Virus record (IMG/VR): IMGVR_UViG_3300020577_006835
Coordinates: 68,588 to 132,587 of that record
Strand: one strand, 5' to 3'
DNA length: 64,000 nucleotides
DNA from: a virus
Lineage: Duplodnaviria > Heunggongvirae > Uroviricota > Caudoviricetes
In this document: one piece after another, positions 9,289 through 23,919 of the stretch
Numbering within the stretch: position 1 is the first letter of the stretch
How the letters are laid out: each line of letters begins with the position of its first letter
The notes under the pieces: model-generated
What the model was told of the DNA's origin: nothing
The model's input: the letters and a program-made list of their open reading frames with translations, nothing else
Databases searched by the model: none
Program-made: the position numbers and the translations under genes

Positions 9289-9870
9289 GTGGGCTCCATC
9301 AAGAACCTCATCGACTACGTGAACACCGTCGACGAGATGGTGGAGGACGCCAAGATGTACCTGGACGCCTACGAGAAGGCCCTGCCGTTCACAGGGGACC
9401 GCCGTGAGGTTGTTGTCGACTGGAGCGATCAGGCGTACTACAACGCCGACATGAGCGTGAAGGTAGGCGGAGCCAACACAACGGTGCAGGAGGTCGAGTG
9501 GGACGCCTGGGCCAGGCGGGAGATCGAGAACGCCGAGCTGAAGTACAAAGCGATCCTGAATCGCAACATGGAAGAGGTCAGGGAGGAGGCTCGCAACAAG
9601 ATTGCCGACAAGCTCGCCGCTGACGCGGCCAGGGTCAGGATCGGCAGACTCGACAGGGGCACTCTGATGGGTATCTCTACCGGTCCGACCCCAGAGCTGG
9701 TGACCAAGAAGGCTGGCAAGTCTACATACTACCAACCGCGCCGTCCCAGCCAACCCAACCTCAACCTGCCAGAGCGTGAGGTCATCACCCCGTCCAGGAG
9801 GCGCTCGGAACCGCCACCGCCGACCCGTGACCTGGACCCGAAGCGGGAGATCTCGCTCGAAGATGATTGA
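9289..9870 (+). CDS. hypothetical protein with C-terminal KREISLEDD tail
   Basis: ORF track (GTG start); ends ...KREISLEDD with stop overlapping next start. Confidence 0.55.
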   Translation: MGSIKNLIDYVNTVDEMVEDAKMYLDAYEKALPFTGDRREVVVDWSDQAYYNADMSVKVGGANTTVQEVEWDAWARREIENAELKYKAILNRNMEEVREEARNKIADKLAADAARVRIGRLDRGTLMGISTGPTPELVTKKAGKSTYYQPRRPSQPNLNLPEREVITPSRRRSEPPPPTRDLDPKREISLEDD

Positions 9871-10753
9871 CCAGCGCACCTTGGAGGAGCGTCTCGACTA
9901 CCTGCGCGAGATGCTTGACATCGACGAGTCGAAGCACGTCGCGACTCATCGCGGTGTCCCTCACAGACAGGACTATCTCGACCTTCACTACGATCGGTAC
10001 CCGCACAAGCAGACCGACAAGGAAGAGAAGCGCACACGAGCGGCTGTGCTCGCTGCGGCCGGCATCGCCTCGCTGATCGGCATCTCGAAGCAGAAGATGC
10101 TGCAGCAGTTCTACATGGCCGAGAAGTACCTCAAGCTCTCCAAGACGGCCAAGACACCGTTCGAGAGGCAGAAGGCTCTCAGGCAGTTCGAGTCCATGAT
10201 CCAGCTGATCAAGGCCGGGCTCAGGCAGTCGTACACCAAGAGCTACCGGCTGGGCGTGTCGTCGAGCGGTGTGGGCGGCCAGTTCCGCACCCGGGGCTTC
10301 ATGTCGCCCGAGGAGGCGCGCTGGGTCGAATCGGCTTTCAAGCACGAGATGCGCTACCTGAACCAGCTGGTCAACGACGTGAAGGCGGGCAAGTCTGTGC
10401 CCACGCTGGCCAACAGGATCGGGCTCTACGCCAAGGCGCTGGCGGCGGCTTACAACTCAGGCCAGGTCATGGCCACGAACCGGGACACGCTGATCCACTG
10501 GAGGCTCAGCCAGGACCCGGAGGTGCAGCACTGCGACGACTGCCTGTATCTGGCAGGGCTCAGCCCGTTCGTTCGTGATACGCTGCCCACGGTGCCCAAG
10601 GCGGGCATCTGCAGGTGTTCGAGCAACTGCCGCTGCGAGCTGGAGTACGAGGTCGTCAAGCAGGACGTGGCCAGTCAGGTGCGCGCCGGCAACATGAGCA
10701 AGACGTACGTGGTCCGGAAGATCCGAGACCGCCAGAGAGGCCGGTATGCTTGA
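9863..10753 (+). CDS. hypothetical protein with C-terminal Cys-rich motif (CDDC...CRCSSNCRCE); possible head morphogenesis protein
   Basis: ORF 9776..10753 with start moved to ATG 9863 (MIDQRTLEERLDYLREM), which overlaps the previous stop. Confidence 0.5.
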   Translation: MIDQRTLEERLDYLREMLDIDESKHVATHRGVPHRQDYLDLHYDRYPHKQTDKEEKRTRAAVLAAAGIASLIGISKQKMLQQFYMAEKYLKLSKTAKTPFERQKALRQFESMIQLIKAGLRQSYTKSYRLGVSSSGVGGQFRTRGFMSPEEARWVESAFKHEMRYLNQLVNDVKAGKSVPTLANRIGLYAKALAAAYNSGQVMATNRDTLIHWRLSQDPEVQHCDDCLYLAGLSPFVRDTLPTVPKAGICRCSSNCRCELEYEVVKQDVASQVRAGNMSKTYVVRKIRDRQRGRYA

Positions 10754-11918
10754 AGAGCACGATGACGACATCCCAGTCCTGTCCCTCGAAGACCCGGAGA
10801 TCGAGGAGAACGACGGGGAAGCAGTCGAGAACGCGGTCAAGGGCTCGATCCGCTACGCCTTCATCGGCTCCGGACAGGGTGGCTCGCGGCTGGCGGCCGA
10901 GGCGTACAAGATCGGCTACCGCAAGACGATCTGCATCAACACGGCCCCGCAGGACCTGTCGGCGATCCAGATCCCCGAGGAGCAGAAGCTCTGCCTCGAC
11001 ATCGGTCCAGGGGGCGCCGGCAAGGACCCGGCCCGCGGCGAGGAGGCGACGACCAAGCATCAGCAGGCGATCTACAACCTGATGAAGCAGGTCTTCGGCA
11101 AGCAGATCGACCACATCATGATCTGCGCCGGTGCCGGCGGCGGTTCGGGCGGAGGCTCGGTGCTGCCGCTGATCATGATCGCCAAGCGCTACCTCCAGTT
11201 CCTCGGCCATGTAGAGGATCTTGACAAGCGCGTCGGTGTGGTGCTAACGCTCCCTACCAACAGTGAGGTCGTCGCAGTCCGGGTGGCGTGGAACGCCTAC
11301 CAGGTGGCCTCCAAGGTGTCGGACTTGGCCGAGGCGGGCTCCATCGCGCCGCTGGTCGTGGTCGACAACGACAAGGTCCTGGAGCTGAGACGCGGCATCC
11401 CGATGGTCAAGATGTGGCCAACGGTGAATTTCGATGTGATGAACCTGTTCCACATCTTCAACTTGCTGTCGTTGAAGCACTCATCGTACACGTCCTTCGA
11501 CCCGTCCGACTACGCGTCGGTGGTCAAGGCAGGCGGTCACACGATCATGGGTGTGACGTCGGTCAAACCGGAGCAAGCACAGAACGAAACAGAGATCATG
11601 CGGGTGGTGAAGTCGTCGCTCGACCGCACGTTGCTGGCAGATGGGTTCGACCTGTCGACGGCGACGCACGTGGCGGCGATCGTCATGGCCGGCCGGCAGA
11701 CGCTGGAAGAGGTCCCTGGACTGGCCGAGGTGATCGAGTACGTGTTCAGCATGCTGGGCACGCTGACCAGCGCGCAGCTGGTGCATCGCGGAGTGTACGA
11801 GGACTCACGGCCAGGGCTCAGGATTTACACGATCGTCTCCGGACTGCAGCGTCCGCTCACCAGGTATCGTAGACTCGAAACGCTCTCGCGTGAGAGGTAC
11901 CCTTTCACAGAGCGTTGA
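10746..11918 (+). CDS. tubulin/FtsZ-superfamily GTPase (PhuZ/TubZ-like phage tubulin)
   Basis: FIGSGQGGSRLA (N-terminal GTP loop), INTAPQDL, GPGGAGKDPARG, and tubulin signature-like ICAGAGGGSGGGS align with FtsZ GVGGGGxNA / VNTDAQAL / GLGAGANPEVG / AAGMGGGTGTG. Confidence 0.8.
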   Translation: MLEEHDDDIPVLSLEDPEIEENDGEAVENAVKGSIRYAFIGSGQGGSRLAAEAYKIGYRKTICINTAPQDLSAIQIPEEQKLCLDIGPGGAGKDPARGEEATTKHQQAIYNLMKQVFGKQIDHIMICAGAGGGSGGGSVLPLIMIAKRYLQFLGHVEDLDKRVGVVLTLPTNSEVVAVRVAWNAYQVASKVSDLAEAGSIAPLVVVDNDKVLELRRGIPMVKMWPTVNFDVMNLFHIFNLLSLKHSSYTSFDPSDYASVVKAGGHTIMGVTSVKPEQAQNETEIMRVVKSSLDRTLLADGFDLSTATHVAAIVMAGRQTLEEVPGLAEVIEYVFSMLGTLTSAQLVHRGVYEDSRPGLRIYTIVSGLQRPLTRYRRLETLSRERYPFTER

Positions 11919-11930
11919 GGTAGACTGCAC

Positions 11931-12005
11931 AGCGACGTGGCTCAGCTGGCCTAGAGCGCCTGGCTCATAACCAGGAGGTCGTCGGTTCGAATCCGACCGT
12001 CGCAA
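11931..12005 (+). tRNA. tRNA-Met (anticodon CAT)
   Basis: Cloverleaf by eye: D-arm GCTCAGCTGGCCTAGAGC, anticodon loop CTCATAA, T-arm GTCGGTTCGAATCCGAC; coordinates +/-2. Confidence 0.75.
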
Positions 12006-12010
12006 CTCGG

Positions 12011-12084
12011 TGCGGGGTGGAGCAGTTGGAAGCTTGCCGGGCTCATAATCCGGAGGTCGCAGGTTCGAGTCCTGCCCCCGCTTC
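12011..12084 (+). tRNA. tRNA-Met, initiator-like (anticodon CAT)
   Basis: Strongly resembles bacterial tRNA-fMet (GCGGGGTGGAGCAG...GGGCTCATAA...GGTTCGAGTCCTGCCCCCGC); coordinates +/-2. Confidence 0.75.
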
Positions 12085-12189
12085 TCTTCGACTCCCGTCG
12101 TCCCGTCCCCGCGGGGCGGCGCCGAGCAGACCAGCCAATCGGGGGCCAGGCAATTGTGCCTGGCTCCTGTTGGCCCTGCAGATGCCCTG

Positions 12190-12498
12190 ATGAGCGCACT
12201 ACGCATGGTAGAGGTAGCCACCTCCCGCTTTCGCGAGGTGACCGCTGTCACAGCCGTTGGGAGCAACGTGCGCGTGACGGTCGACTACCGCATGAACAAC
12301 AAGTTCCTGCCCGCCTTCCTGGAACAGCTTGACCGCGCGCTGCACGCCACCTACAACGCGGCGCTCATCGTCGAACCCTTGAGCGATGACCAATTCGCAG
12401 CGGACCCGAACTTCGAACGCACACCTGGAACTGGACCGATCGTGCCGACAACGTGGGACTGGATGAACAAGAAGGGAGAGAAGAATGGCAAGCGTTGA
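12190..12498 (+). CDS. hypothetical protein
   Basis: ORF 12154..12498, start moved to ATG 12190 (MSALRMVEV). Confidence 0.45.
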   Translation: MSALRMVEVATSRFREVTAVTAVGSNVRVTVDYRMNNKFLPAFLEQLDRALHATYNAALIVEPLSDDQFAADPNFERTPGTGPIVPTTWDWMNKKGEKNGKR

Positions 12499-12826
12499 AG
12501 CGAAGAAGTGTGATCAGTGTGGAACGGTGGAGCACGGCGAGCAGCTGGGCAGCTGGGTAGGGCTGGCCAAGCCGAACGGCGTCATGCTGATCGGCCCCAT
12601 CTACGAGGTGGCGGCCACGGTCAAGCGCCTGTACGGCGACTTCTCCGGGATCGAGGACATCGACCCGAGACAGCGCAGCGTCAAGGAGCTGTGCAGCCAG
12701 GGCTGCCTGCACGAGATGGTCTCGGCCCACTTGCAGAAGGGTGAGATGCAGGGTCAGAGCTACGGCCGGCGCCGCTCGATCGGCGTCACCGTGGACGACC
12801 TGACTGGTACGGTGGGAGTGGCGTGA
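12485..12826 (+). CDS. hypothetical protein
   Basis: ORF track; RBS GGAGAGAAGA upstream. Confidence 0.45.
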   Translation: MASVEAKKCDQCGTVEHGEQLGSWVGLAKPNGVMLIGPIYEVAATVKRLYGDFSGIEDIDPRQRSVKELCSQGCLHEMVSAHLQKGEMQGQSYGRRRSIGVTVDDLTGTVGVA

Positions 12827-14445: not shown

Positions 14446-14472
14446 TTAGCACGCGACCAACGAATTTGTCAA
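14446..14472 (-). promoter_or_regulatory. promoter-like motif TTGACA-N14-GTGCTAA (minus strand)
   Basis: Reverse complement reads TTGACAaattcgttggtcgcGTGCTAAgattc just upstream of the 14436 start. Confidence 0.5.
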
Positions 14473-14666
14473 GCGAGTGAGATCTCGATCTTCACTTCGA
14501 CAGGGTCATCGGTGTGCTTCAGCTCAGCGTAGTCCGGGCTGTCAGCCGGCAGCTCGATGGCACCGCGGGCGGACACGAAGACACCATGGCGGCGGACGGG
14601 TATTCCGGCATGCAGGTAGAGCCCGTTGAACAGTCTGTCCCGGGCAACGTACATCGTGATCGTCAT
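14469..14666 (-). CDS. small hypothetical protein
   Basis: ORF track. Confidence 0.35.
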   Translation of the reverse strand: MTITMYVARDRLFNGLYLHAGIPVRRHGVFVSARGAIELPADSPDYAELKHTDDPVEVKIEISLA

Positions 14667-15079: not shown

Positions 15080-15103
15080 GCATCCCTCCGTCAAGCTAAG
15101 CAG

Positions 15104-15189
15104 TACTGGAGGGGGGACTTGAACCCCCACGGGTTGTTAGCCCACAGCGCTCTCGACGCTGCGCGTGCTGCCAGTTTCGCCACTCCAGT
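15104..15189 (-). tRNA. tRNA-Leu (anticodon GAG), class II with long variable arm
   Basis: 86 nt; T-arm GGGGGTTCAAGTCCCCC and D-arm closely resemble E. coli tRNA-Leu; anticodon stem CAGCG/CGCTG, loop TCGAGAG. Confidence 0.7.
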
Positions 15190-15264
15190 AAACAAGGCCG
15201 ATGGTAAGGGCTCGGCCAACACCCACTTGGTGAAGAACCTCGGATAACGGCCCGAGTGCCGAAG

Positions 15265-15335
15265 AGAGGGCAGCGGGAGTCGAACCCGCCTGACAGGTTT
15301 TGCAGACCTGCGCCTTACCGCTCGGCCATGACCTC
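15265..15335 (-). tRNA. tRNA-Cys (anticodon GCA)
   Basis: 71 nt; anticodon loop CTGCAAA; T-loop TTCGACT as in E. coli tRNA-Cys; 3-bp D-stem. Confidence 0.8.
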
Positions 15336-15343
15336 TTCAAGAG

Positions 15344-15417
15344 TACCAGGGGTGGGATTCGAACCCACACTGTCACGGTTCTGAACCGTGTGCCTCCTGC
15401 CGTTGGGCTACCCTGGC
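15344..15417 (-). tRNA. tRNA with anticodon CAG (Leu-type anticodon) but class-I (short variable arm) architecture; A73
   Basis: 74 nt; acceptor GCCAGGG/CCCTGGT, perfect anticodon stem CACGG/CCGTG, loop TTCAGAA, T-arm GTGGGTTCGAATCCCAC. Confidence 0.6.
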
Positions 15418-15942
15418 AGCTTTTCTACGTCTACGGTACTGGCGATTAGCCTCTGCACCACACGTCAACGAGGTGAACCCCTTGTTGTTGCCGTAGGTTG
15501 GAGTTTGTGAGTGGCAGTTCGGGCAGAGAAATTCTAGGTTGTCCAACCTGCAGTCCTTGAAATCCCCGTTTTTGTGCTCTACGTGCAGCCGTAGAGCGTT
15601 GCCAAGCCAGTGCCCGGGGTTGCCACAGCTGGCGCACTCGTACCTGGTGCCGGCTTCGATCAGGGCTCTCCGCAGTCTCAGGGCGTTTTCTCGATAAGGC
15701 TTGCTCCGAAGAACGAGAACCTCCTCGTGTGGCTTCTTGCTAGCCGAGGGCAGGCCGGCGTTCCACACAGTTCTACTGAAGTGCGTGGTGTCCAGGTTGT
15801 ACTGCTTGATCCTCAGCGAGATCAGGTTCGCTCCGCCGCCAGTCAGACGCATGTTGAGTGCCCGCATCACGTCTCTGATGCAGCTGCTGCTCGCTACTAT
15901 CGGGGCTAGTACCCCCTTGGTGTACTTCAGGTGTGCTGGCAT
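15373..15942 (-). CDS. HNH homing-endonuclease-like protein
   Basis: HVEHKNGDFKDCRLDNLEFLCPNCH motif; ORF 3' end overlaps tRNA 15344..15417 by about 45 nt, and its start abuts tRNA 15950. Confidence 0.7.
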   Translation of the reverse strand: MPAHLKYTKGVLAPIVASSSCIRDVMRALNMRLTGGGANLISLRIKQYNLDTTHFSRTVWNAGLPSASKKPHEEVLVLRSKPYRENALRLRRALIEAGTRYECASCGNPGHWLGNALRLHVEHKNGDFKDCRLDNLEFLCPNCHSQTPTYGNNKGFTSLTCGAEANRQYRRRRKAARVAQRQEAHGSEP

Positions 15943-15949
15943 GTGATAG

Positions 15950-16023
15950 TGGGTCCGGTGGGAGTCGAACCCACAACTTCTCGGTTAAGGGCCGAGTACT
16001 CTAGCCAGTTGAGTTACGGACCC
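15950..16023 (-). tRNA. tRNA-Lys (anticodon CTT), C at position 33
   Basis: 74 nt; acceptor GGGTCCG/CGGACCC, anticodon stem CTCGG/CCGAG, loop CCCTTAA, T-arm GTGGGTTCGACTCCCAC. Confidence 0.6.
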
Positions 16024-16027
16024 AGAG

Positions 16028-16102
16028 TGCGCTCGGCAGGATTCGAACCTGCGTCGCTCCGGGTAAAGGCCGGCTGCCTGGGCCAGACTAGGCTACGAGC
16101 GC
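16028..16102 (-). tRNA. tRNA-Lys (anticodon TTT)
   Basis: 75 nt; T-arm GCAGGTTCGAATCCTGC identical to E. coli tRNA-Lys; loop CCTTTAC. Confidence 0.65.
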
Positions 16103-16528: not shown

Positions 16529-17127
16529 GCTTGAGCCCTCTCGCGCGCCCGCTTCTCGCGCATGTGGGTGCGCATCGCCTCACGTTTCGCTTCGCCGCGC
16601 CGAGCGTGTGTCGCCGCGTACGTGCACACCGGCCCGCAGAACTTCTGCCGCCTGTACCTCACGAACACCGCCTCACAGTGTGGGCACTTCCGATACGGGA
16701 ACGGCTGTTCCCGAAGGAGCCTCACAAACTCCGCGACAAGCATCTGCTCGACGGTTCGTGTCTCCCAGATCTCTACGAGCATCTCCCGGGAGGTGTGGAG
16801 GTAGGTTAGGACTGACGCACCAGGCACCGGCAGTCTCACCCCCTCCCACTGCAGGAGGCAGCCCAGGTGGAAGTTCACTTTCGGTAGAAGGGTTCTGAGC
16901 AGATTGGCGGGGTTTACAGCTGGCTCCGCGACAAGAACAACGGAGACCGGCGCAGAATCACGCAGGTTGTGCACCTTGAACTTGGCCGCCTCTTCGACCT
17001 GCTCCTTCAGGCGCGCGTGGGCGGACTCTGACAGCATGTCTACGTCATCGTACTCGGCTGACGCCAGCGCTGCGAACAGCGCTTTCACAGCCCCATGGTT
17101 CTTGAATGCCAACCTGTTGCCGCTCAC
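16525..17127 (-). CDS. hypothetical protein with C-terminal zinc ribbon (CPHCE...CGPVC)
   Basis: ORF track. Confidence 0.5.
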   Translation of the reverse strand: MSGNRLAFKNHGAVKALFAALASAEYDDVDMLSESAHARLKEQVEEAAKFKVHNLRDSAPVSVVLVAEPAVNPANLLRTLLPKVNFHLGCLLQWEGVRLPVPGASVLTYLHTSREMLVEIWETRTVEQMLVAEFVRLLREQPFPYRKCPHCEAVFVRYRRQKFCGPVCTYAATHARRGEAKREAMRTHMREKRARERAQA

Positions 17128-18566
17128 TTGGCGTACCTCGACTTGAAGTTGTTGATGTAGAGCAGAGCGCCCAGCTCGGCGACCTGGTCGGCGAAGTCCC
17201 TGGACAGGTGGTCGCTCACGTCCTGGTGGGCGAACTCGTGCAGGAGGAGCTTGAGCACCTCGACCACGTTGTCCTCACGAAACCAGTGGTGGCTGAGCCG
17301 ACCCACGTTGAAGGTGAGCGGGCTGCCAGGGCCGTAGGTGGCGGCGTAGGGCCAGGTGATGTCGCTCGTGAACTGCACCACGAGGTTCTTGAACCCCAGC
17401 GTGTCCTTGCAGATGATCTGCGAGAAGAGGGCGACCCACTTCATGCCCTCGGTCCACTTCTCGCGCGGGATGAGCTTCTGCTCGTCGCCGGTCTCGGAGT
17501 AGGGCTTCGGGCTCGGCGTCACCTGGCCGGCAGGCAGGGTTGCTGCGAACCGCTTCGTGTTGGCGTGCTCCTCGCGTGACTGTGAGCCTCCGTAGATCAG
17601 CTTGTAGCCCTCGCTGACGGCGATGTTGTTCGCCTCCGGGTCTGAGGGGTCGAACATGACCCGCTTCTCACCCCAGCGGAGGTCCTGCACCCTCTTGAAG
17701 GCCTCCTCCTCGACACGCTCGTCACCGGCAGCTTCACGCACCCAGGCCGAGGTCGCATCCTCAACAGAGAGACGGTGGTGAGACGCGTTCAGCGCGTGCG
17801 TGCGCAGAGCCCGCAGATAGCTCGGCGGCACGTTGTCGCGCTCGATGGTCAGCGGGACGCGCTGCAGCACGTTGTAGTGCCACTTGTCGCCTGACTCGAC
17901 GATCGGGATGCCCATCTCGTAGATCAGGGCTGTCTCGCCAGAAGCGGGCTCGTACAGCTCGACGACGGTCTTGCGCTGCGTGCGCCGCAGCTCCCCATCC
18001 TCGCCGCTGAACTCGGTCTGCAGCGTGGCATCGAGCGAGGTGACGGCGGCCCGCCGCGGGATCTCGATGCCGTTCAGCGTGACCGTGACACCGGCGGGTG
18101 GGATGATAGTGCGGAACGCGTCCATCATCTCTGTCATCTCCGCCTTGGTCGCGCGGAGCCTCGCGGTGAACGTGGTGCCTCGAATCGTGCCCGCGGTGCG
18201 ACTCAGGTGTCGACCGTGGTCGTCGAAGATGAGGGCGCCGGTCGTGCTCGCGATCTTCGCATGGTCGCAGAGCGCAAGTACAAACTTCTCGCCGATGTTG
18301 AAGCGACCGCGCAGGGTGGCGTCGGGCTTCTTCTGACTGGGCGCGAACAGCGTGTACGCGTCACGCAGGTCCTGGAAGCCTACCTCCGAATTGTCCCGGA
18401 CCTCCATCTCGACCCGGCCGCGGAACACGGACTCGGTGAGGGCAACCGAGACCCGATCGGACCCGGCATCGACCGCGTTCTGATACAGCTCGAAGAACAC
18501 GAAAGCCTTGCCCCTGCGTGCGACTTGCTGCGCCAGACCTTTCCGATCCACCTCGAACCATTCCAT
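17124..18566 (-). CDS. GHKL/Bergerat-fold ATPase-like protein with C-terminal HExxH (zincin-like) motif
   Basis: N-terminal ELYQNAVDAG (N-box ExxxNAxDA), DNSEVGF (G1), GRFNIGEKF (G2); C-terminal LLLHEFAHQ. ORF 17124..18599 starts at TTG inside its own promoter, so the start is placed at ATG 18564-18566, which has a GGAGG RBS. Confidence 0.55.
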   Translation of the reverse strand: MEWFEVDRKGLAQQVARRGKAFVFFELYQNAVDAGSDRVSVALTESVFRGRVEMEVRDNSEVGFQDLRDAYTLFAPSQKKPDATLRGRFNIGEKFVLALCDHAKIASTTGALIFDDHGRHLSRTAGTIRGTTFTARLRATKAEMTEMMDAFRTIIPPAGVTVTLNGIEIPRRAAVTSLDATLQTEFSGEDGELRRTQRKTVVELYEPASGETALIYEMGIPIVESGDKWHYNVLQRVPLTIERDNVPPSYLRALRTHALNASHHRLSVEDATSAWVREAAGDERVEEEAFKRVQDLRWGEKRVMFDPSDPEANNIAVSEGYKLIYGGSQSREEHANTKRFAATLPAGQVTPSPKPYSETGDEQKLIPREKWTEGMKWVALFSQIICKDTLGFKNLVVQFTSDITWPYAATYGPGSPLTFNVGRLSHHWFREDNVVEVLKLLLHEFAHQDVSDHLSRDFADQVAELGALLYINNFKSRYAK

Positions 18567-18587
18567 GCGTCGTACCTCCAGTCTCAG

Positions 18588-18616
18588 ATTAGACCACAAC
18601 CATCAATCTTTGTCAA
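18588..18616 (-). promoter_or_regulatory. sigma70-like promoter TTGACA-N17-TCTAAT (minus strand) for gene 17124..18566
   Basis: Reverse complement reads TTGACAaagattgatggttgtggTCTAATctgagactGGAGGtacgacgcATG. Confidence 0.5.
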
Positions 18617-18664: not shown

Positions 18665-20281
18665 ATGCACCGCATGGCGAAGGACGACTACACACAGCTG
18701 CAGAAGGACTTTCGAAGCGCACGACGCGTGAGCACACCGCTCATGTTGGTGCGCACGGTCGACGGACGAGAGACGGCACGCAACCTGACGGCAGCCGCAG
18801 CCGACGGGCACCCGGTCATCTGGTGGGACACGGCGACCGGTCTGTCATCGCTCAACAAGCAGGTCGGCGTCAAGGCCCTGCTCGAAGCGCTGACCCCGAC
18901 CGATCAGGACGGTGGCGAGCCGATGACGCCGGAGTCGATCACCTCGCCCGTCGACGCGCTGGCCGTGGCCAACAGGCTGCCCAGGACGTCGATCCTGATC
19001 ATGCACAACGCGCACCTGTTCCTGATCCCCGGCCAGGCGGCCTACCCGCTGATGGTGCAGAGCATCTGGAACCTGCGCGACACCTTCAAGACCAACAAGC
19101 GGCTGCTCGTCCTTCTTACGCCGAACACGTCCCTGCCGCCGGAGCTGGTGCAGGACTTCCTCATCTTCGAGGAGGAGCTGCCCAACCGCGAGCGCTTGCA
19201 GAAGGTGGTCGTCGACATCCACAAGTCGGCCAACGTCGAGGTCCCGAAGCAGGAGGTCGTCAACAAGGCGGTCGACGCGCTCCGCGGCCTGGCCTACAAC
19301 CCGGCCGAGCAGATCACGGCCATGTCGCTCTACATGGACGAGAACAAGCAGGTCGTCTTCAACGTCCAGGAGCTGTGGCGGCGCAAGCGGGAGCTGATCA
19401 ACCAGACCAAGGGTTTGTCGGTCGACGCGCCCAAGGCGACCTTCAAGGACATCGGCGGCCAGGCCCAGATCCAGCTCTTCGGCACGCGGATCTTCAACGG
19501 TCCCTCGGCCCCGAACTGCGTGGTGCGCATCGACGAGATCGAGAAGATGCTGGCCGGCGCAGCGGGTCCGGTCTCCGACACGTCCGGCGTCAGCCAGGAT
19601 GCGCTGGGCGTCGTGCTGCGCGAGATGGAGGACAACGGGTGGCCCGGCATCCTGCTCGTCGGCTCGCCCGGTACGGGTAAGACGCTCTTCTCGACCGCGC
19701 TCGGCACCACGTTCGAGAAGCTCTCGATCGCGCTCGACCTGGGTGCGATGAAGGGCAAGTACGTCGGCGAGTCGGAGGCTGCGATCCGCAACGCGATGAG
19801 CGTCATGCGCAGCGTGTCCGACAACCAGCTGCTGATCATCGGCACCTGCAACAAGCTGGAGGTGCTGCCGCCGGAGCTGCGCCGCCGCTTCAAGCTGGGC
19901 ATCTGGTTCATCGACCTGCCCTCGGCCGAGGAGCGGGACCTGATCTGGCAGATCAACCTCAAGCGCTTCAACCTGGACCTGAGCCAGACGCGGCCCGACG
20001 ACAAGGTCTACACCGGAGCCGACATCCGCAACATCTGCGAGATCGCCTGGCGGCTGTCGACCGACGTGATCGAGGCCTCCAAGTTCATCGTGCCCGTGGC
20101 CATCTCGGACCCGGCCTCGATCCAGCGGCTGCGAGTCCAGGCGCACAACAAGTACCTGTCGGCGGCCTACCCTGGGCCGTACATCATCCCGGCCGGGCAG
20201 GCTCCGGAGGAGCTGGCAGCCGAGGAGGGGAAGCGGGAGATCTCGCTCGACCTCACCGGCGGCAAGAAGTACGGGAACTGA
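18665..20281 (+). CDS. AAA+ ATPase-like protein with atypical motif order; C-terminal KREISLDLTGG
   Basis: GILLVGSPGTGKT (Walker A), YVGESEAAIRN, QLLIIGTCNKLEVLPPELRRRF (sensor-1/Arg-finger region); a Walker-B-like VVRIDEIEK lies upstream of Walker A. Confidence 0.6.
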   Translation: MHRMAKDDYTQLQKDFRSARRVSTPLMLVRTVDGRETARNLTAAAADGHPVIWWDTATGLSSLNKQVGVKALLEALTPTDQDGGEPMTPESITSPVDALAVANRLPRTSILIMHNAHLFLIPGQAAYPLMVQSIWNLRDTFKTNKRLLVLLTPNTSLPPELVQDFLIFEEELPNRERLQKVVVDIHKSANVEVPKQEVVNKAVDALRGLAYNPAEQITAMSLYMDENKQVVFNVQELWRRKRELINQTKGLSVDAPKATFKDIGGQAQIQLFGTRIFNGPSAPNCVVRIDEIEKMLAGAAGPVSDTSGVSQDALGVVLREMEDNGWPGILLVGSPGTGKTLFSTALGTTFEKLSIALDLGAMKGKYVGESEAAIRNAMSVMRSVSDNQLLIIGTCNKLEVLPPELRRRFKLGIWFIDLPSAEERDLIWQINLKRFNLDLSQTRPDDKVYTGADIRNICEIAWRLSTDVIEASKFIVPVAISDPASIQRLRVQAHNKYLSAAYPGPYIIPAGQAPEELAAEEGKREISLDLTGGKKYGN

Positions 20282-20419
20282 GGGGGAGCAGGGGGAGGGC
20301 GCCGCAGAGGCTCGACCCTCCCCCCGCATGGGTGGGGTGAGCCAAACCCTACTCATGTCCGTCAGAGTTGTCAATACGAGGTCGCTGGTGCTAACCGGCC
20401 AGCGGACAGGAGGACGAGG

Positions 20420-20761
20420 ATGCCGTGTTACGTGGTGAGCGAGGCGTCGGTCGACATCAAGGCGGCCAACTTCTCGCTTCTGGAGAAGGGGCTGGCCAAC
20501 GACAAGGACTTCATCCTGCACGGTGTGTATGGGGGTGTCCTGCACGCGTCGTGGAAAGGGCAACGGTTCACTCTGGCCAACGGACAGGTCACAGTGGAGC
20601 ACCGGGACCAGCGGATGGCCGAAAAGCTGGCCGGCGAGATCGGCAACGCCGTCAATCGAGCCTACTCCAAGCAGGTTGTGAAGCACGCTTCGCAGAAGAT
20701 GGGCTGGGCTGTGGAGCAGACGGGTGACCTGGAGTTCAACGTCACCAAGCGGTCGGCCTGA
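20420..20761 (+). CDS. hypothetical protein
   Basis: ORF track; promoter-like motif at about 20368-20394. Confidence 0.5.
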   Translation: MPCYVVSEASVDIKAANFSLLEKGLANDKDFILHGVYGGVLHASWKGQRFTLANGQVTVEHRDQRMAEKLAGEIGNAVNRAYSKQVVKHASQKMGWAVEQTGDLEFNVTKRSA

Positions 20762-20771
20762 GGGAGGGGAC

Positions 20772-20993
20772 ATGTCACAGGACAAGATGACGGTGCGCAT
20801 CGAGGAGGATGGCACCATCACGACGGTGGTCAACGGGCAGATCTCGACCATGAATCACGACTCTGCCGACAAGTGGCTCAAGATGGTTGAGAAGCTGGCC
20901 GGCGGCCACGTGCGCCGCACCAAGGACAAGAAGGCGGAGCACAAGCATGCCCACACGCACCACGACCACGAGCATGAACAAGCCAAGGCCTGA
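20772..20993 (+). CDS. small His-rich hypothetical protein
   Basis: ORF 20724..20993, start moved to ATG 20772 (MSQDKMTV); C-terminal HKHAHTHHDHEHE. Confidence 0.45.
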   Translation: MSQDKMTVRIEEDGTITTVVNGQISTMNHDSADKWLKMVEKLAGGHVRRTKDKKAEHKHAHTHHDHEHEQAKA

Positions 20994-21270
20994 GCCCACA
21001 CCAACACCGGTGTGGGAGATCATCAGCGCCACGTCCAAGGGTAAGTTCGTGATCGTCGAGGCCCGCATTGCCGGCAACCAGGTTGCGAGGTCTGGGTGCG
21101 CCTGGGTCGACTACCAGCTCAAGTTCGAGACCAAGGGAGGGCTGCCCTCGTGTGTGGGCGGCACGTACAAGATCTCCAACGTCGCCGCCGGTGACGCGTT
21201 CGCGACCAGGCTGCCGGACAACTTCCTGCGAGCCTGTGGCAGTGCCGCGCTCGCGGCCAGGAAGAGGTGA
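20974..21270 (+). CDS. hypothetical protein
   Basis: ORF 20887..21270, start moved to ATG 20974 (MNKPRPEP). Confidence 0.45.
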   Translation: MNKPRPEPTPTPVWEIISATSKGKFVIVEARIAGNQVARSGCAWVDYQLKFETKGGLPSCVGGTYKISNVAAGDAFATRLPDNFLRACGSAALAARKR

Positions 21271-21273
21271 ACC

Positions 21274-21561
21274 GTGAAGCTCTTGTTCTGCAAGGCGTGC
21301 GTGGACGTGAGGAAGCTCTCCACGCGCACGATCACGGTCTGTGACTGCGGTGCGTCCAAGGGCAAGTACCTGGAGGATGGGCTGAACGCTACGGTCGAAG
21401 GGGACCGCGCCCTCGTGCTGGGGTTCGACAACAACTCTCTTCGAGCTGCCATCATGCAGGACGGCAGACTGCCGAAGGAGTACGGGGCCGAAGGGGAGCC
21501 CGGCGTCAGGTTCGAAGCCTTCATCATCCCCAACTCAGCAAGGTCCGTGAAACGGGCTTGA
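21274..21561 (+). CDS. hypothetical protein
   Basis: ORF track (GTG start). Confidence 0.45.
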   Translation: MKLLFCKACVDVRKLSTRTITVCDCGASKGKYLEDGLNATVEGDRALVLGFDNNSLRAAIMQDGRLPKEYGAEGEPGVRFEAFIIPNSARSVKRA

Positions 21562-21584
21562 CACACTCAGCGGTCGAGTGCTAA
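21558..21584 (+). promoter_or_regulatory. promoter-like motif TTGACA-N14-GTGCTAA
   Basis: cTTGACAcactcagcggtcgaGTGCTAAagg, 35 nt upstream of the 21619 start with RBS GAAAGGAG. Confidence 0.5.
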
Positions 21585-21618
21585 AGGGCCGCACCAGTAG
21601 CAGAGAAAGGAGTAGAGA

Positions 21619-22530
21619 ATGGCGATCGAAGAAGGGGGCCGGAAGGTCATCGAGACGACCGTGTGTCTGGACGTGCAGATCAGCATGCTCGGCTTGGAGC
21701 GACGGGTCGAGTCCGAGGACGTGACCGCCAAGGACGCGGACAAGAAGCGTTTGCGTGTCACCAAGTTGATCATCGAATCCGACACCATCAAGTCGATGCA
21801 GAAGCTGCGCAGCCGACTCGCGGCCGATCTCAAGGAGATCAAGGTGCCCACCAAGATGTACCGGCACGGCATCTACTTGATCCCGCAGATCTACGTGGTC
21901 AACGTCGAGAACCTGCTGAAGCTGGCCAAGAAGGAGATGAAGGAGCTGGCCACGCAGCTGGTGTCCGAGTACGACGACCTGAAGGCGGCCGCCAAGGAGA
22001 GTCTGGGTCAGCTGTACGACGAGAAGGATTACCCGTCCCCTGAAGCGTTGCCGGCGCTGTTCGACGTCCAGTGGGATTACTTGGCGTTCGACACGCCAGC
22101 CGTTCTGAAGAACCTGGACTACGAGCTGTTCCAGAGTCAGCGGGAGAGAGCTGAGCGTCGCTGGGACGAGGCCGCGGAGCAGATCCGTCGTGCTCTGCGT
22201 GAGGGGTTCGGCGGTCTGGTGACCGAGTTCGTGGACAAGATGATCCCCGGAGACGACGGCACCTTCCGCAAGCTGAAGCAGCCCTTCATCGACAAGTTCC
22301 ACGAGTTCCTGCGCTTCTTCGAGGGCCGCAACGTGACCTCGGACGAGGAGCTGGACGAGCTGGTCAAGAAGGCCAAGGACCTGCTCGAAGGACGCACGGC
22401 GCAGGAGCTGCGCGGCGACGAGGAGATGCGCGAGAAGATCCTGGAGAGCTTCAAGACGCTGCGCGAGAGCAGCGACAAGCTGGTCCAGGAGTACGTGCGC
22501 GAGGTCAGTCTGGAGGAAGATGCGGCGTGA
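21619..22530 (+). CDS. acidic, Lys/Glu-rich hypothetical protein ending REVSLEEDAA (scaffold-like composition)
   Basis: ORF track; strong RBS; stop overlaps next GTG start. Confidence 0.6.
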   Translation: MAIEEGGRKVIETTVCLDVQISMLGLERRVESEDVTAKDADKKRLRVTKLIIESDTIKSMQKLRSRLAADLKEIKVPTKMYRHGIYLIPQIYVVNVENLLKLAKKEMKELATQLVSEYDDLKAAAKESLGQLYDEKDYPSPEALPALFDVQWDYLAFDTPAVLKNLDYELFQSQRERAERRWDEAAEQIRRALREGFGGLVTEFVDKMIPGDDGTFRKLKQPFIDKFHEFLRFFEGRNVTSDEELDELVKKAKDLLEGRTAQELRGDEEMREKILESFKTLRESSDKLVQEYVREVSLEEDAA

Positions 22531-23135
22531 GAGACACGCCTACATTGTTGGTGGCCGAGCAGGACTTCAAGCGGCTGGTGCTCGCGGGCCGTGTGTACAG
22601 CATCGCCCGCGGGCAGTGGCGCAAGATCGACGATCTGGGGCCGCCCCCTGTCGCGGTCGTGCGCCCCGGGCTGCTTGGTGAGGACTTCGCCTCCGAGGTC
22701 ACGGCCGCTGATCTGTGCGAGCTGAGCGGTGCCCAGACCGACTACATGGACACCTTCCTGCTGGTGCTGCGTGGGGCTGTCATGGACGAGGTGCCGTTCC
22801 ACACCGAGAGCGGCGTCACGATGCCTGAGGTCTACAAGGAGTGCTTGCAGTTCTTCGTCAGACACGCGCCGAGGCCGATCGTGCGCCGCATGATGATTGC
22901 ACCCGTCATCGACCGGGCGATCAACGACATCACCATGGCCGTGGATGCCTGGAAGACGAACCGCCCGGACTTCACCATGCTCTGGGAGGGCATGATGGAA
23001 GTGTCACGACGGTCTGACAGCCTGCGGGCCGGCGGGCGCCGCTACGTACCGAAGAGGCAGCTGGACCAGGAGACCTTGAAGGCGTTGACCCAGACCACAC
23101 CGGTGCGAGAGGTCTCGCTGTCAGAGGACGATTGA
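22527..23135 (+). CDS. hypothetical protein ending REVSLSEDD
   Basis: ORF track (GTG start). Confidence 0.55.
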   Translation: MRDTPTLLVAEQDFKRLVLAGRVYSIARGQWRKIDDLGPPPVAVVRPGLLGEDFASEVTAADLCELSGAQTDYMDTFLLVLRGAVMDEVPFHTESGVTMPEVYKECLQFFVRHAPRPIVRRMMIAPVIDRAINDITMAVDAWKTNRPDFTMLWEGMMEVSRRSDSLRAGGRRYVPKRQLDQETLKALTQTTPVREVSLSEDD

Positions 23136-23136
23136 A

Positions 23137-23919
23137 GTGGAGATCGTGGACGACATGACGCTCGACTTCATGGCCCACGTGACGGCCCAGGTGAGGCTGG
23201 ACGGGACCTTCATCACGGTTGCGCAGTCTGAGCCTGGCTACTCGACGGCCGACAAGGCGTACAAGGCTTTGCTGATCGAGGCTGGTCTTGCGGATGGAAT
23301 GGTGCTGCTTCCGTCGGATGAGGATCGTGACTTCGCTGCCAGGACCATGGCCTGGGCCAGAGAGGTGTTCGTCGCCCGCAGCTCGTTCCAGGAGAAGCAG
23401 CGAGAGGCAGCCCTGCAGGGCGTCAACAAGGTCAATTACAGAATCCTGGCCTCGCTCTACGTGGCGTACGACAAGACCGCGAACCGCAAGAAGCCGTTCG
23501 GCGCCCCGGGCGACATCATCTCGTGCAGGGCGCTGCTCAAGGGGCTCCGAGCGCAGCCGCTGGGGTCCACGCTCTTGAAGGGGCTCGACGCCACGTTCGA
23601 GAACATGGACAACGGGTCGACGCTCGTGGTCGAGATGCCGGCCAACCTCCAGCAGGACGCTGCGGACGAGCTGGTGCTCAACGATGAGTACCAGGGGACC
23701 TTCTACGTGGTCTCTGCCAGGGACCTGAGCGGGGTCTGGTACTGCCGCGGGACGGCCGTCGAGCTGGTGCACATCACTGCCGATGCAGCGATGCGGGTGA
23801 TCGGGCAGCGAATCCCCATCCCGAGAGTGCAGCGGGCGATGCCGACCAAGGCGATCGCAAGCGGGGTGGCACCGGAGCCGAAGAAGGTCAGGGACATTAG
23901 CTTGACGGAGGACGATTGA
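23137..23919 (+). CDS. hypothetical protein ending RDISLTEDD
   Basis: ORF track (GTG start). Confidence 0.55.
   Translation: MEIVDDMTLDFMAHVTAQVRLDGTFITVAQSEPGYSTADKAYKALLIEAGLADGMVLLPSDEDRDFAARTMAWAREVFVARSSFQEKQREAALQGVNKVNYRILASLYVAYDKTANRKKPFGAPGDIISCRALLKGLRAQPLGSTLLKGLDATFENMDNGSTLVVEMPANLQQDAADELVLNDEYQGTFYVVSARDLSGVWYCRGTAVELVHITADAAMRVIGQRIPIPRVQRAMPTKAIASGVAPEPKKVRDISLTEDD

What the first reader, a model, noticed from the sequence alone, without database searches (positions are those of the whole stretch)
9841..23919. Five proteins share a conserved C-terminal tail K/R-R-E/D-[IV]-S-L-x-E-D-D
ORFs 9289..9870 (KREISLEDD*), 21619..22530 (REVSLEEDAA*), 22527..23135 (REVSLSEDD*) and 23137..23919 (RDISLTEDD*) end with the same motif. 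The AAA+-like protein 18665..20281 has KREISLDL 7 residues from its end. Codons differ between copies (gcgggagatctcgctcga vs gaggtctcgctgtca vs gacattagcttgacg), so the conservation is at the protein level. In each case the stop overlaps the next gene's start. A shared terminal peptide across otherwise unrelated neighbouring proteins suggests a common targeting, docking or processing signal. Candidates are capsid/scaffold incorporation, a prohead-protease site, or binding to a common partner such as the tubulin filament or a compartment.
Basis: seen in the sequence. Interest (0 to 1): 0.65.

Follow-up and report, generated by a model that had tools for sequence, protein, structure and literature searches.

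The report
Shared C-terminal docking tag of phage AAA cassette
Five unrelated proteins of this jumbo phage end in the same short peptide, the hallmark tail of a widespread, uncharacterised four-gene mobile-element cassette built around a Cdc48-like ATPase, and it most likely docks all of them onto one common partner.

Summary
All codons differ, so selection acts on the protein.

The tail is not peculiar to this phage. The 303-aa protein is a divergent DUF3150. With the AAA ATPase and two small proteins (DUF1257-like, DUF2997-like) it forms a co-directional cassette found in about 160 fetched loci from phages, plasmids and islands of Nitrospirota, Acidobacteriota and Planctomycetota.

Across these loci the DUF3150 and AAA proteins both end in R-x-[IVF]-x-[LF], usually with an acidic flank. 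The Arg is invariant. The two small proteins never carry the tail. AAA and DUF3150 tails co-vary within a locus (0/5000 permutations), and locus-matched tails recur on unrelated neighbours such as a YqaJ exonuclease and a pentapeptide-repeat protein.

Best reading: a portable, co-evolving linear docking peptide that recruits its bearers to one cassette-encoded site, centred on a Cdc48-like double-ring AAA that lacks an N-domain. The receptor is not identified.

Capsid targeting, prohead-protease processing and tubulin binding are not supported. I found no prior description.

The parts
18665..20281 (+). Cdc48/p97-like two-domain AAA ATPase: degenerate D1 at about aa 1-250, active D2, no N-terminal adaptor domain. 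The Walker B segment precedes the Walker A segment.
   Evidence: Pfam AAA. AF2 model pLDDT 90.8. Foldseek best hits Rix7, p97/Cdc48, Drg1 and NVL over about 600 columns. Segment swap shown.
20231..20254 (+). Tail motif of the AAA protein, K-R-E-I-S-L-D-L. R524 is at 20234-20236. Eight more residues follow.
   Evidence: R524 is invariant in 57 homologs of about 45% identity. Residues 511-538 have pLDDT 46-65, i.e. disordered. Homologs often end in GR.[IV].[LV]*.
20420..20761 (+). DUF1257-like small protein (113 aa), tail-less cassette member.
   Evidence: No Pfam hit on its own. Its subgroup profile matches the canonical group at hhalign 97.8%, E 1e-12. 24 of 45 group members hit PF06868. Present in about 123 of 161 AAA loci.
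20769..20993 (+). DUF2997-like small protein (74 aa from the ATG) with a His-rich C-terminus (HKHAHTHHDHEHE), tail-less cassette member.
   Evidence: hhalign 97.7%, E 2e-12 to the canonical group. 25 of 42 group members hit PF11211. Present in 134 of 161 loci, none with a tail.
21619..22530 (+). Divergent DUF3150-family protein (303 aa), the ancestral bearer of the tail.
   Evidence: Profile A1 against the Pfam-passing DUF3150 of CP114559: hhalign 99.8%, E 1.5e-29. The family has 8679 cluster representatives. Present in 132 of 161 AAA loci.
22498..22527 (+). Tail of the DUF3150-like protein, R-E-V-S-L-E-E-D-A-A.
   Evidence: R294 is invariant in A1 and A2 and nearly invariant (>=90%) in A6. 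Family consensus [DE][KR]P.R.I[ST][LF][ED][DE][ED]*. pLDDT below 50 for residues 297-303.
22527..23135 (+). 202-aa orphan accessory protein. Tail R-E-V-S-L-S-E-D-D at 23106-23132.
   Evidence: The only homolog is in L006, at 55% identity with an intact tail (REISLTEDE). No Pfam, PHROG, NCBIfam or PADLOC hit.
23137..23919 (+). 260-aa orphan accessory protein. Tail R-D-I-S-L-T-E-D-D at 23890-23916.
   Evidence: The L006 ortholog is 48% identical, with tail REISLTEDD conserved and the linker diverged. No relatives in IMG/VR.
9289..9870 (+). 193-aa orphan protein between the portal and the MuF-like gene. Tail K-R-E-I-S-L-E-D-D at 9841-9867 after a Pro-rich linker.
   Evidence: It has only two homologs, in sibling phages, and the one whose C-terminus was read (182 aa, 73% identical; L010) keeps the tail. 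It is absent between portal and MuF in the syntenic relatives L034 and L039.

Best explanation
The tail is a short linear docking peptide with the core R-x-[IV]-x-[LF], a beta-strand-like alternation. It usually follows a disordered linker and is usually followed by acidic residues.

It is the ancestral C-terminal signature of the two large proteins of a conserved four-gene mobile-element cassette: a Cdc48-like AAA ATPase, DUF1257, DUF2997 and DUF3150. Every bearer docks through it onto the same receptor site, encoded by the cassette. That joins the ATPase, DUF3150 and lineage-specific client proteins into one machine, or hands clients to the ATPase.

The peptide is portable. Different elements have attached their own locus-specific version to unrelated neighbouring proteins. 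This phage attached it to three orphan proteins of 193, 202 and 260 aa.

Shown here:
- conservation at the protein level and the invariant Arg
- restriction of the tail to the AAA and DUF3150 proteins plus some neighbours
- absence of the tail from DUF1257 and DUF2997
- within-locus co-variation of tails on non-homologous proteins
- disorder of the tail in structure models
- the Cdc48-like fold of the ATPase, which lacks an N-terminal adaptor domain

Inferred:
- that co-variation reflects one shared binding pocket
- that the receptor is cassette-encoded

My ranking of receptor candidates is the AAA ring (about 0.3), the DUF3150 body by strand addition (about 0.15), DUF1257/DUF2997 (about 0.15), and a host protein (about 0.1). 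The biological process served is unknown. Gene neighbourhoods point to replication, recombination or element maintenance.
For: - Window statistics: 5 observed against 0.011 expected, all at C-termini, all codons different.
- Orthologs in L006 are 48-85% identical and keep all four tails while the linkers diverge.
- DUF3150-like family (8679 representatives): 67% of 156 members have R.[IVLM].[LFIMV] in the last 16 aa, against 4.9% of internal 16-mers. In 120 AAA homologs it is 47% against 5.4%. R294 and R524 are invariant.
- Cassette: of 161 AAA loci, DUF3150 is in 132, DUF2997 in 134 and DUF1257 in about 123, all co-directional in fixed order.
- Tail frequency by family: AAA 28.8%, DUF3150 38.6%, DUF1257 1.8%, DUF2997 0%, control 3.4%. 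A stricter pattern on other genes gives 2.1% within -1.5 to +5 kb against 0.4% farther away, Fisher p=1.9e-4.
- Co-variation: BLOSUM62 over positions +1 to +4 is 4.93 for same-locus pairs against 0.86 permuted (0/5000). It persists within clades: 6.20 vs 3.21, 5.07 vs 1.84, 2.74 vs 1.55. An aromatic +2 residue in both proteins gives Fisher p=4e-4.
- Locus-matched accessory tails: L024 KPARLISLE in both proteins; L058 in three neighbours; L078 RELD/REIE; L072 RRVRV; L013 KRKIR(I)L.
- Clients are functionally diverse: YqaJ exonuclease, pentapeptide repeat, SWIM.
- The AAA has a double-ring p97/Rix7-like fold with no N-domain. Tails are disordered in both models.
- Tail charge anti-correlates best with the charge of the AAA body, rho -0.50.
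Against: - No binding has been observed and the receptor is not identified.
- The column-wise association scan was inconclusive and is confounded by phylogeny.
- The AAA tail does not dock in cis in the monomer model.
- Only 29-39% of cassette AAA and DUF3150 proteins match the simple regex in the broad locus set. Some clades use basic or aromatic variants, so the motif is loose.
- Permutation tests do not fully remove relatedness among loci.
- In this phage the E-D codons (GAGGA) also lie 4-10 nt upstream of the next start. Part of the acidic flank could therefore serve translation of the next gene.
- The 193-aa bearer sits in the head-gene region, which the cassette-hub model does not explain.
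Confidence: 0.6

Rival explanations
1. Unfoldase engagement tag. The tail with its disordered linker is recognised at the pore or entry of the Cdc48-like AAA ring, as ssrA is by ClpX or the RbcL C-tail by CbbX. Bearers are substrates that get unfolded, extracted or disassembled rather than stably docked partners.
For: The AAA has the fold of substrate-threading type II AAA proteins and has no N-domain for adaptor-mediated recruitment. Tails lie at extreme C-termini after disordered linkers. The tail-bearing set is heterogeneous.
Against: The ATPase itself carries the tail with an invariant Arg, which is odd for a substrate tag. DUF3150 is a constant stoichiometric partner in 132 of 161 loci, not an occasional substrate. 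No protease partner recurs in the neighbourhoods.
Confidence: 0.18
2. Host-hub hijack. The tail binds a conserved host protein such as the sliding clamp, SSB, a chaperone or a protease. This recruits the element's proteins to a host machine, as clamp-binding or SSB-tail motifs do.
For: Bearers include DNA-metabolism proteins (YqaJ exonuclease, pentapeptide DNA-mimic type). The cassette usually sits among replication and recombination genes. EISLDL in the AAA loosely resembles hexapeptide clamp motifs of the QLxLxL type (consensus recalled from memory).
Against: Tails diverge and co-vary locus by locus even among elements of the same host phylum. That is not expected for a slowly evolving host pocket. 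The tail is tied to the cassette, being enriched only on cassette proteins and their near neighbours. It lacks the terminal hydrophobic pair of clamp motifs and the DDDIPF of SSB tails.
Confidence: 0.1
3. Virion targeting or maturation signal. The tail directs proteins into the prohead, to the portal or to the scaffold, or marks a prohead-protease cleavage site (L-x-E).
For: One bearer (193 aa) lies between the portal and the MuF-like head gene. Three tails contain L-x-E, and two others S-L-E. These resemble T4-type and phiKZ-type protease consensus sites (consensus recalled from memory). In this phage group the cassette lies within 10 kb of terminase, portal and MuF genes.
Against: The motif is ancestral in a cassette found on plasmids and chromosomal islands that have no capsid genes. 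Four of the five bearers belong to that cassette, including an ATPase. Bearers elsewhere are recombination and DNA-mimic proteins. The syntenic relatives L034 and L039 lack the 193-aa gene. No prohead protease or capsid gene was detected in the 84 kb examined.
Confidence: 0.04
4. Nucleotide-level by-product. The similarity reflects a conserved DNA or RNA element for translational coupling, such as a Shine-Dalgarno sequence with fixed spacing, at gene junctions.
For: GAGGA, from the Glu-Asp codons, lies 4-10 nt upstream of the next start at three junctions. Three of the four junctions overlap.
Against: Every codon of the R-E-[IV]-S-L core differs between copies. The AAA copy is followed by a 138-nt gap. 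The same peptide is conserved in thousands of proteins across phyla with GC content from 47% to 70%.
Confidence: 0.01

Closest known systems
p97/Cdc48 C-terminal tail (PUB/PUL-interacting motif) and the HbYX tails of proteasomal AAA ATPases
   Same: A double-ring classic-clade AAA with a disordered C-terminal tail that carries a short conserved docking peptide. The fold match to p97, Rix7 and Drg1 was found here.
   Different: The sequence is different: R-x-I-x-L, not DDLYG or Hb-Y-X. The window AAA ends KYGN. The same peptide is also on non-ATPase proteins. There is no N-domain, the Walker segments are permuted, and no 20S, PUB or PUL partner is present.
ESCRT-III MIM tails binding the Vps4 MIT domain
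   Same: Several different proteins share a C-terminal peptide that recruits them to, or makes them substrates of, one AAA ATPase.
   Different: MIMs are helical and bind an N-terminal MIT domain. Here the ATPase has no such domain and carries the motif itself. DUF3150 shows no ESCRT-III or PspA fold match.
Bacterial SSB C-terminal tail (DDDIPF) and clamp-binding motifs (QL[SD]LF): hub-docking peptides of DNA metabolism
   Same: Short terminal peptides after disordered linkers, found on many otherwise unrelated proteins or binding many partners. The gene context here is replication and recombination.
   Different: The consensus is different. The tail co-varies within each element rather than being fixed by a host hub. 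It is confined to one cassette and its neighbours.
Encapsulin cargo-loading peptides and the T4 capsid-targeting sequence
   Same: A shared terminal peptide on unrelated neighbouring proteins that acts as an address label.
   Different: There is no shell or capsid gene next to the bearers. The T4 CTS is N-terminal and cleaved. The motif occurs on capsid-less plasmids and islands.
Eukaryotic PP1-docking RVxF motif ([KR][KR][VI]x[FW], with a basic N-flank and acidic C-flank)
   Same: The family consensus R-[AKR]-I-[ST]-[FL]-[DE][DE] is close to RVxF and suggests binding as an added beta-strand in a hydrophobic groove. This is a resemblance recalled from memory.
   Different: No PP1-type phosphatase is associated with the cassette. 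The window tails end in Leu, not Phe or Trp. No homology is implied.
Cyanobacterial and plastid Ycf46 (AAA) / Ycf35 (DUF1257) / DUF2997 association
   Same: The same three protein families occur. DUF2997-ycf35 gene clusters are reported in cyanobacteria (PMC4284462), and ycf35 and ycf46 are discussed together in red-algal plastids (PMC5940233 abstract listing).
   Different: No DUF3150 and no tail has been described there, and the function is also unknown. I did not test whether Ycf46 proteins carry the tail or the permutation.

Membership tests
Pfam DUF3150 (PF11348) | The protein scores above the curated gathering threshold of the family profile. | tested here: not met
   Window 303-aa protein: E=0.023, 14.5 bits against a cut-off of 24.9. 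Only 16 of 44 group members hit at E<=0.01.
Pfam DUF3150 (PF11348) | Homology to bona fide members over the whole domain. | tested here: met
   Profile A1 against the Pfam-passing DUF3150 of CP114559 (35.3 bits): hhalign probability 99.8%, E=1.5e-29, 270 columns. NCBI names those homologs DUF3150. The window protein is therefore a divergent superfamily member.
Pfam DUF1257 (PF06868, Ycf35) | Profile match or homology to family members. | tested here: met
   The window 113-aa protein has no direct hit. Its subgroup profile matches the canonical subgroup at 97.8%, E=1.1e-12. 24 of 45 group members hit PF06868. It holds the same position in the cassette.
Pfam DUF2997 (PF11211) | Profile match or homology to family members. 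| tested here: met
   The window 74-aa protein has no direct hit. Subgroup against canonical subgroup gives 97.7%, E=2.2e-12. 25 of 42 group members hit PF11211.
Type II classic-clade AAA ATPases (Cdc48/p97, Rix7, Drg1) | Two tandem AAA-fold domains. | tested here: met
   AF2 model pLDDT 90.8. Foldseek E about 1e-13 over about 600 aligned columns to Rix7, p97, Drg1 and NVL.
Type II classic-clade AAA ATPases (Cdc48/p97, Rix7, Drg1) | Canonical order Walker A, then Walker B, then sensor 1 in the active domain. | tested here: not met
   All motifs are present, but the Walker B segment (aa 285-323) precedes the Walker A segment (aa 328-380).
Type II classic-clade AAA ATPases (Cdc48/p97, Rix7, Drg1) | N-terminal adaptor or substrate-binding domain. 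| tested here: not met
   The model starts directly with the D1-like alpha/beta domain.
Type II classic-clade AAA ATPases (Cdc48/p97, Rix7, Drg1) | Hexameric protein-unfolding activity. | not testable with these tools
   Requires biochemistry or cryo-EM.
T4-type capsid-targeting sequence / prohead-protease processing site | The signal sits on prohead core or virion proteins encoded in the head module. | tested here: not met
   Four of the five bearers are in a non-structural cassette that also occurs on plasmids and islands. Only the 193-aa protein is next to the portal.
T4-type capsid-targeting sequence / prohead-protease processing site | Cleavage consensus (L/I-x-E or S/A/G-x-E) and a prohead protease gene. 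| tested here: inconclusive
   L-x-E or S-L-E can be read in the tails. No protease or capsid gene was found in the 84 kb examined. The rest of the genome was not available.
Encapsulin cargo-loading peptide | A C-terminal peptide on cargo genes adjacent to an HK97-fold shell gene. | tested here: not met
   There is no shell gene in the neighbourhoods, and the neighbours are helicases, ThiF/JAB and SSB.
Beta-clamp-binding motif (QL[SD]LF / QLxLxL) | Consensus with a conserved Gln and a terminal hydrophobic pair. | tested here: not met
   Tail logo: invariant Arg, hydrophobic residues at +2 and +4, acidic residues at +5 to +7. Only the AAA copy, EISLDL, resembles the hexapeptide. The consensus is recalled from memory.
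Catalogued anti-phage defence systems (PADLOC) | Match of cassette proteins to defence-system models. | tested here: not met
   Only weak generic AAA similarity to IetA (E=6e-7, partial). The other six window proteins have no hit.

The most novel reading that the evidence does not exclude
Mobile elements of several bacterial phyla encode a previously unrecognised peptide-address system. A Cdc48-like unfoldase, here with a permuted AAA core, works with DUF1257, DUF2997 and DUF3150. Any element protein can be plugged into this machine by acquiring a roughly 9-residue C-terminal tag, and the tag co-evolves with its receptor, giving each element a private specificity. The tag would then predict the client set of an unknown phage or plasmid machine directly from sequence.
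Probability: 0.35. Interest if true: 0.8.

Novelty: new variant of a known kind. Interest (0 to 1): 0.64.

Why it matters
Shared terminal docking peptides are a known principle (SSB tails, HbYX, MIM, cargo-loading peptides). This motif, its cassette and the co-variation across non-homologous proteins appear undescribed in the literature I could search.

The cassette is common: 350 relatives in IMG/VR and more than 500 in one-genome-per-species bacteria. The DUF3150-like family has about 8,700 clusters at 50% identity. All four families are of unknown function.

The tail gives a first handle on them. It predicts which proteins belong to the same complex, supplies a peptide for pull-downs and structure prediction, and offers a sequence rule for finding clients in any element. 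Locus-specific tag variants suggest orthogonal tag-receptor pairs, which could be useful for engineering.

The permuted AAA core seen on the way is itself a structural curiosity.

Tried and rejected
- **IMG/VR relatives of the 260-aa protein:** none found.
- **Exact-sequence look-ups with first-start ORFs:** failed until ATG starts were used.
- **Locus search with the 46-sequence DUF3150 alignment:** too diverse for pattern-based locus finding.
- **First DUF2997 iterative profile:** contaminated by AAA sequences through over-extended ORFs, then rebuilt.
- **Receptor identification by charge correlation and column-wise association:** weak or inconclusive.
- **Cis-docking of the AAA tail in the monomer model:** not seen.
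- **Defence-system membership:** none.
- **Tubulin, MuF or HATPase as general cassette partners:** rejected, 3 of about 160 loci.
- **Extra candidate tails in the window:** the minus-strand ORF 14469-14666 (...KIEISLA*), the TubZ N-terminus (IPVLSLEDPE) and 29520-30581 (...HRGEITADE*) all lack the invariant Arg in register. I do not count them.
- **Literature on DUF3150/DUF1257/DUF2997, PRTRC, Ycf46 and permuted AAA:** nothing relevant to the tail.

Full report
**1. Observation.** The five tails exist as described:
- the 193-aa protein at 9289-9870 ends KREISLEDD*
- the 303-aa protein at 21619-22530 ends REVSLEEDAA*
- the 202-aa protein at 22527-23135 ends REVSLSEDD*
- the 260-aa protein at 23137-23919 ends RDISLTEDD*
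- the AAA protein at 18665-20281 has KREISLDL followed by eight residues

The strict pattern occurs four times in all six frames of the 64 kb, each time at the end of a + strand gene. Among 88 called proteins, five carry [KR][ED][IV]SL in their last 16 residues, against 0.011 expected. No shuffle out of 3000 reaches five, and the core never occurs internally. Every codon of the core differs between copies. With the tails removed, the five proteins show no similarity to one another.

Three details need correcting. The AAA motif is 8 residues from the end, not 7. One of the four gene junctions (23135/23137) is a 1-nt gap, not an overlap. The 193-aa bearer is about 9 kb away from the others, next to the portal gene.

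**2. Genome context.** The window belongs to a jumbo phage. An identical 303-aa protein lies on contigs of up to 208 kb. The window holds 20 tRNA genes, a T4-type portal with two inteins, and a terminase-like protein with a LAGLIDADG intein. Just upstream of the window, sibling contigs carry gp32, a 5'-3' exonuclease, a RecA/UvsX-like protein, gp46/47-like proteins and Cpn10. No closely related cultured phage was found.

**3. The tail is under selection.** In L006, a relative with conserved gene order, the orthologs are 85% (AAA), 74% (303 aa), 55% (202 aa) and 48% (260 aa) identical. All four tails are kept (KREISLDL, REISLEEDAA, REISLTEDE, REISLTEDD), while the linkers just upstream have diverged and several codons have changed synonymously. 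Homologs of the 303-aa protein at 29-30% identity still end in R-x-[IV]-x-L followed by acidic residues. R294 and L298 are invariant.

**4. What the 303-aa protein is.** A profile search over 1.84 billion cluster representatives found 8679 relatives, 2173 of them at E<=1e-30. Nearly all of the 150 best end in ...[KR]P.R.I[ST][LF][DE][DE][DE]*. The motif R.[IVLM].[LFIMV] is in the last 16 residues of 67% of them, against 4.9% of internal 16-mers. NCBI annotates homologs on Ca. Manganitrophus extrachromosomal elements as DUF3150. The window protein misses the Pfam threshold on its own (E=0.023). Its family profile matches a Pfam-passing DUF3150 with hhalign probability 99.8%. The AF2 model (pLDDT 75) is a helical bundle with a small sheet and a low-confidence tail. 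It has no informative structural neighbour.

**5. The cassette.** In CP114559 the genes run AAA ATPase, DUF1257, DUF2997, DUF3150. The window has the same order: 18665-20281, 20420-20761, 20769-20993, then two small ORFs, then 21619-22530. The same arrangement is seen in Tunturiibacter phage Tunturi_3, in IMG/VR contigs, in a Deltaproteobacteria island (L014) and in a 95-kb viral contig (L015).

Using the AAA alignment I fetched 80 viral loci out of 350 relatives, and 80 genomic loci out of more than 500. The genomic loci are mostly Nitrospirota, Acidobacteriota and Planctomycetota. Of 161 loci with the AAA gene:
- 132 have a DUF3150-like gene
- 134 have a DUF2997-like gene
- about 123 have a DUF1257-like gene

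All are co-directional, at median distances of +0.4, +0.7 and +2 kb for DUF1257, DUF2997 and DUF3150. Pfam confirms the identity of the three groups (24/45, 25/42 and 16/44 members hit, with no competing family). Profile-profile comparison ties the divergent window proteins to the canonical groups.

No other neighbour family is present in more than 30 loci. Those that recur are an SNF2 helicase, ThiF+JAB, a radical-SAM protein, DnaB, YqaJ and SSB. No defence-system model matches.

**6. The ATPase.** The AF2 model is confident (pLDDT 90.8). It aligns over about 600 columns with double-ring AAA unfoldases: Rix7, p97/Cdc48, Drg1 and NVL. It has a degenerate D1, an active D2 and no N-terminal adaptor domain. 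Its last ~28 residues, which carry the motif, are disordered. Homologs of 40-49% identity frequently end in ...GR.[IV].[LV]*, for example GRAITLEE*, GREISL* and RKISVGEDD*. The frequency is 47% against 5.4% for internal windows. R524 is invariant in a 57-sequence alignment.

**7. Who carries the tail.** In the broad locus set the tail is on 28.8% of AAA proteins and 38.6% of DUF3150 proteins. It is on 1.8% of DUF1257 proteins and none of the DUF2997 proteins. The internal control is 3.4%. A stricter pattern is enriched five-fold on other + strand genes within -1.5 to +5 kb of the AAA gene, 2.1% against 0.4%, p=1.9e-4.

These accessory bearers are unrelated proteins whose tails match the tails of their own locus:

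| Locus | Cassette tail(s) | Accessory tail(s) |
|---|---|---|
| L024 | DUF3150 KPARLISLEGEE* | KPARLISLEREE* |
| L058 | DUF3150 KRRITFD* | RRLIHLD*, KRKITLE*, KRKINLEED* |
| L078 | AAA SRELDI*, DUF3150 IRELDLD* | WREIEL* |
| L072 | DUF3150 TRRVRV... | VRRVRVR* |
| L013 | DUF3150 KRKIRILPE... | KRKIRLSPGS* |
| L015 | AAA TRKVEV*, DUF3150 GRKIDLED* | GRRLISLEE*, TRLIEL* |
| L039 | AAA KRRSVEV* | DREVEVD* |

Where they can be annotated, the accessory bearers are a YqaJ recombination exonuclease (two lineages), a pentapeptide-repeat protein and a SWIM zinc-finger protein. A recurrent small family also lies directly after the AAA gene.

**8. Co-variation.** I anchored on the conserved Arg through the family HMMs. 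AAA and DUF3150 tails from the same locus are much more alike than tails paired across loci. BLOSUM62 over positions +1 to +4 is 4.93 against 0.86, with 0 of 5000 permutations reaching the observed value. The effect remains within the viral, the Nitrospirota/Acidobacteriota and the Planctomycetota subsets, and after removing duplicate tails.

The same substitutions appear in both proteins: Phe or Tyr at +2 (Fisher p=4e-4), a basic residue at +3 (p=6e-6), and a switch to a basic flank in Planctomycetota. The two proteins are not homologous, so this parallel change is best explained by a shared binding site. Relatedness among loci inflates the significance but does not create the direction of the effect.

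**9. Mechanism.** I conclude that the tail is a portable linear docking peptide. It tethers the AAA, DUF3150 and lineage-specific clients to one receptor. This phage has extended the set to three orphan proteins, and the one next to the portal is an insertion absent from the syntenic relatives L034 and L039.

The receptor is not identified. Several points favour the AAA ring:
- Its family is known to use terminal peptides.
- It has no N-domain.
- Its body charge anti-correlates best with tail charge (rho -0.50).
- Some of the best co-varying columns lie on one face of the D2 lid helix, at positions 456 and 460.

All of this is weak. The always-present, never-tagged DUF1257 and DUF2997 proteins remain candidates, as does strand addition to the DUF3150 sheet. 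An invariant Arg on a flexible tail could also act as an ATPase-activating residue, as in ParG-type or ParB-type peptides. That last idea is inference only.

**10. Rivals.**
- An unfoldase-substrate tag is plausible but fits poorly with the ATPase carrying the tag itself.
- A host hub is disfavoured by the locus-specific co-variation.
- Capsid targeting or prohead-protease processing is disfavoured by the presence of the motif on capsid-less elements and on recombination proteins.
- Tubulin is near the cassette in only 3 of about 160 loci.
- A nucleotide-level origin is excluded by the codon differences. The GAGGA of the Glu-Asp codons may still double as a ribosome-binding site for the next gene.

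**11. Novelty.** Searches for DUF3150, DUF1257, DUF2997, PRTRC, Ycf46 and permuted AAA found no description of this tail or of the cassette as a unit. The principle is known. The motif, the cassette and the co-evolving tag are, as far as I can tell, new.

Noticed in passing
window 18665-20281 (aa 285-323, 328-380, 387-461): The AAA core is permuted in a non-circular way. The Walker B segment precedes the Walker A segment (order B-A-C instead of A-B-C). This holds throughout the phage/Acidobacteriota/Nitrospirota clade, while the Planctomycetota clade and CP114559 keep the canonical order. AF2 still models a confident AAA fold (pLDDT above 90). I found no literature on it.
   Followed up: partly
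window 20769-20993; L006 2213-2434; L015 12837-13040; L039 12358-12567: The DUF2997-like protein of the window-type cassettes has a His-rich C-terminal extension (HKHAHTHHDHEHE, HAHSHGHGHRHSH, GHSHIHQGNHTHT), suggestive of metal binding. Canonical DUF2997 members instead have a G-x-x-G-x-x-C motif.
   Followed up: no
window 5288-9286 and 1604-4987: The T4-type portal gene carries two inteins: a Hint_2 region at about aa 214-302, and an intein-splicing domain with an HNH endonuclease at about aa 701-1053. The 1127-aa terminase-like protein carries a LAGLIDADG intein. The relatives L034 and L039 have an intein-free 535-aa portal.
   Followed up: partly
window 10746-11918: A TubZ-like tubulin begins MLEEHDDDIPVLSLEDPEIEE. 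This acidic N-terminus contains VLSLED, resembling the tail but lacking the Arg, and DDDIP, reminiscent of SSB and FtsZ terminal peptides. TubZ with the MuF-like gene and a sacsin/HATPase-like gene (17124-18599, minus strand) recurs only in L034 and L039.
   Followed up: partly
window 14469-14666 (minus strand): A 65-aa ORF with good coding bias ends ...VEVKIEISLA*. It has the EISL core at a C-terminus but not the invariant Arg in register, so I did not count it as a bearer.
   Followed up: no
window 22510-22530, 23118-23137, 23902-23919: The Glu-Asp codons of the tails spell GAGGA 4-10 nt upstream of the next gene's start. The acidic flank may double as a Shine-Dalgarno sequence for translational coupling.
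   Followed up: partly
window 11931-12084, 15103-16102, 24439-25165, 36801-38258, 50007-50250: Twenty tRNA genes lie in five clusters on both strands, with HNH-like small genes in between (for example 15373-15942, 24658-25107 and 37766-38191).
   Followed up: no
P0159-P0200 (AAA homologs); L093: A large AAA subfamily ends in G-R-x-Y-x-E-[SD] (Tyr at +2). Where both proteins are seen (L093), the DUF3150 tail is also R-A-Y-F-D-E. A second recurring AAA ending is a C-terminal Asn (KKGN*, ...SxN*), as in the window's KYGN*.
   Followed up: partly
window 30980-33046, 39662-40486, 52581-55231, 55811-57361: The phage carries unusual cargo: a 688-aa SPFH/Band-7 protein, an RlaP-type nucleotidyltransferase, a UDP-galactopyranose mutase with a family-2 glycosyltransferase, and a poly(A) polymerase/CCA-adding-type enzyme.
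   Followed up: no
L001 7384-7776 and five other loci: An SSB-like 130-aa protein ending ...DDPLPF*, a classical SSB tail, lies near the cassette in 6 loci. In L001 and L002 the DUF3150 tail is extended to ...RALQLEDDDSDSLF*, ending in an aromatic residue like SSB and T7 gp2.5 tails.
   Followed up: no
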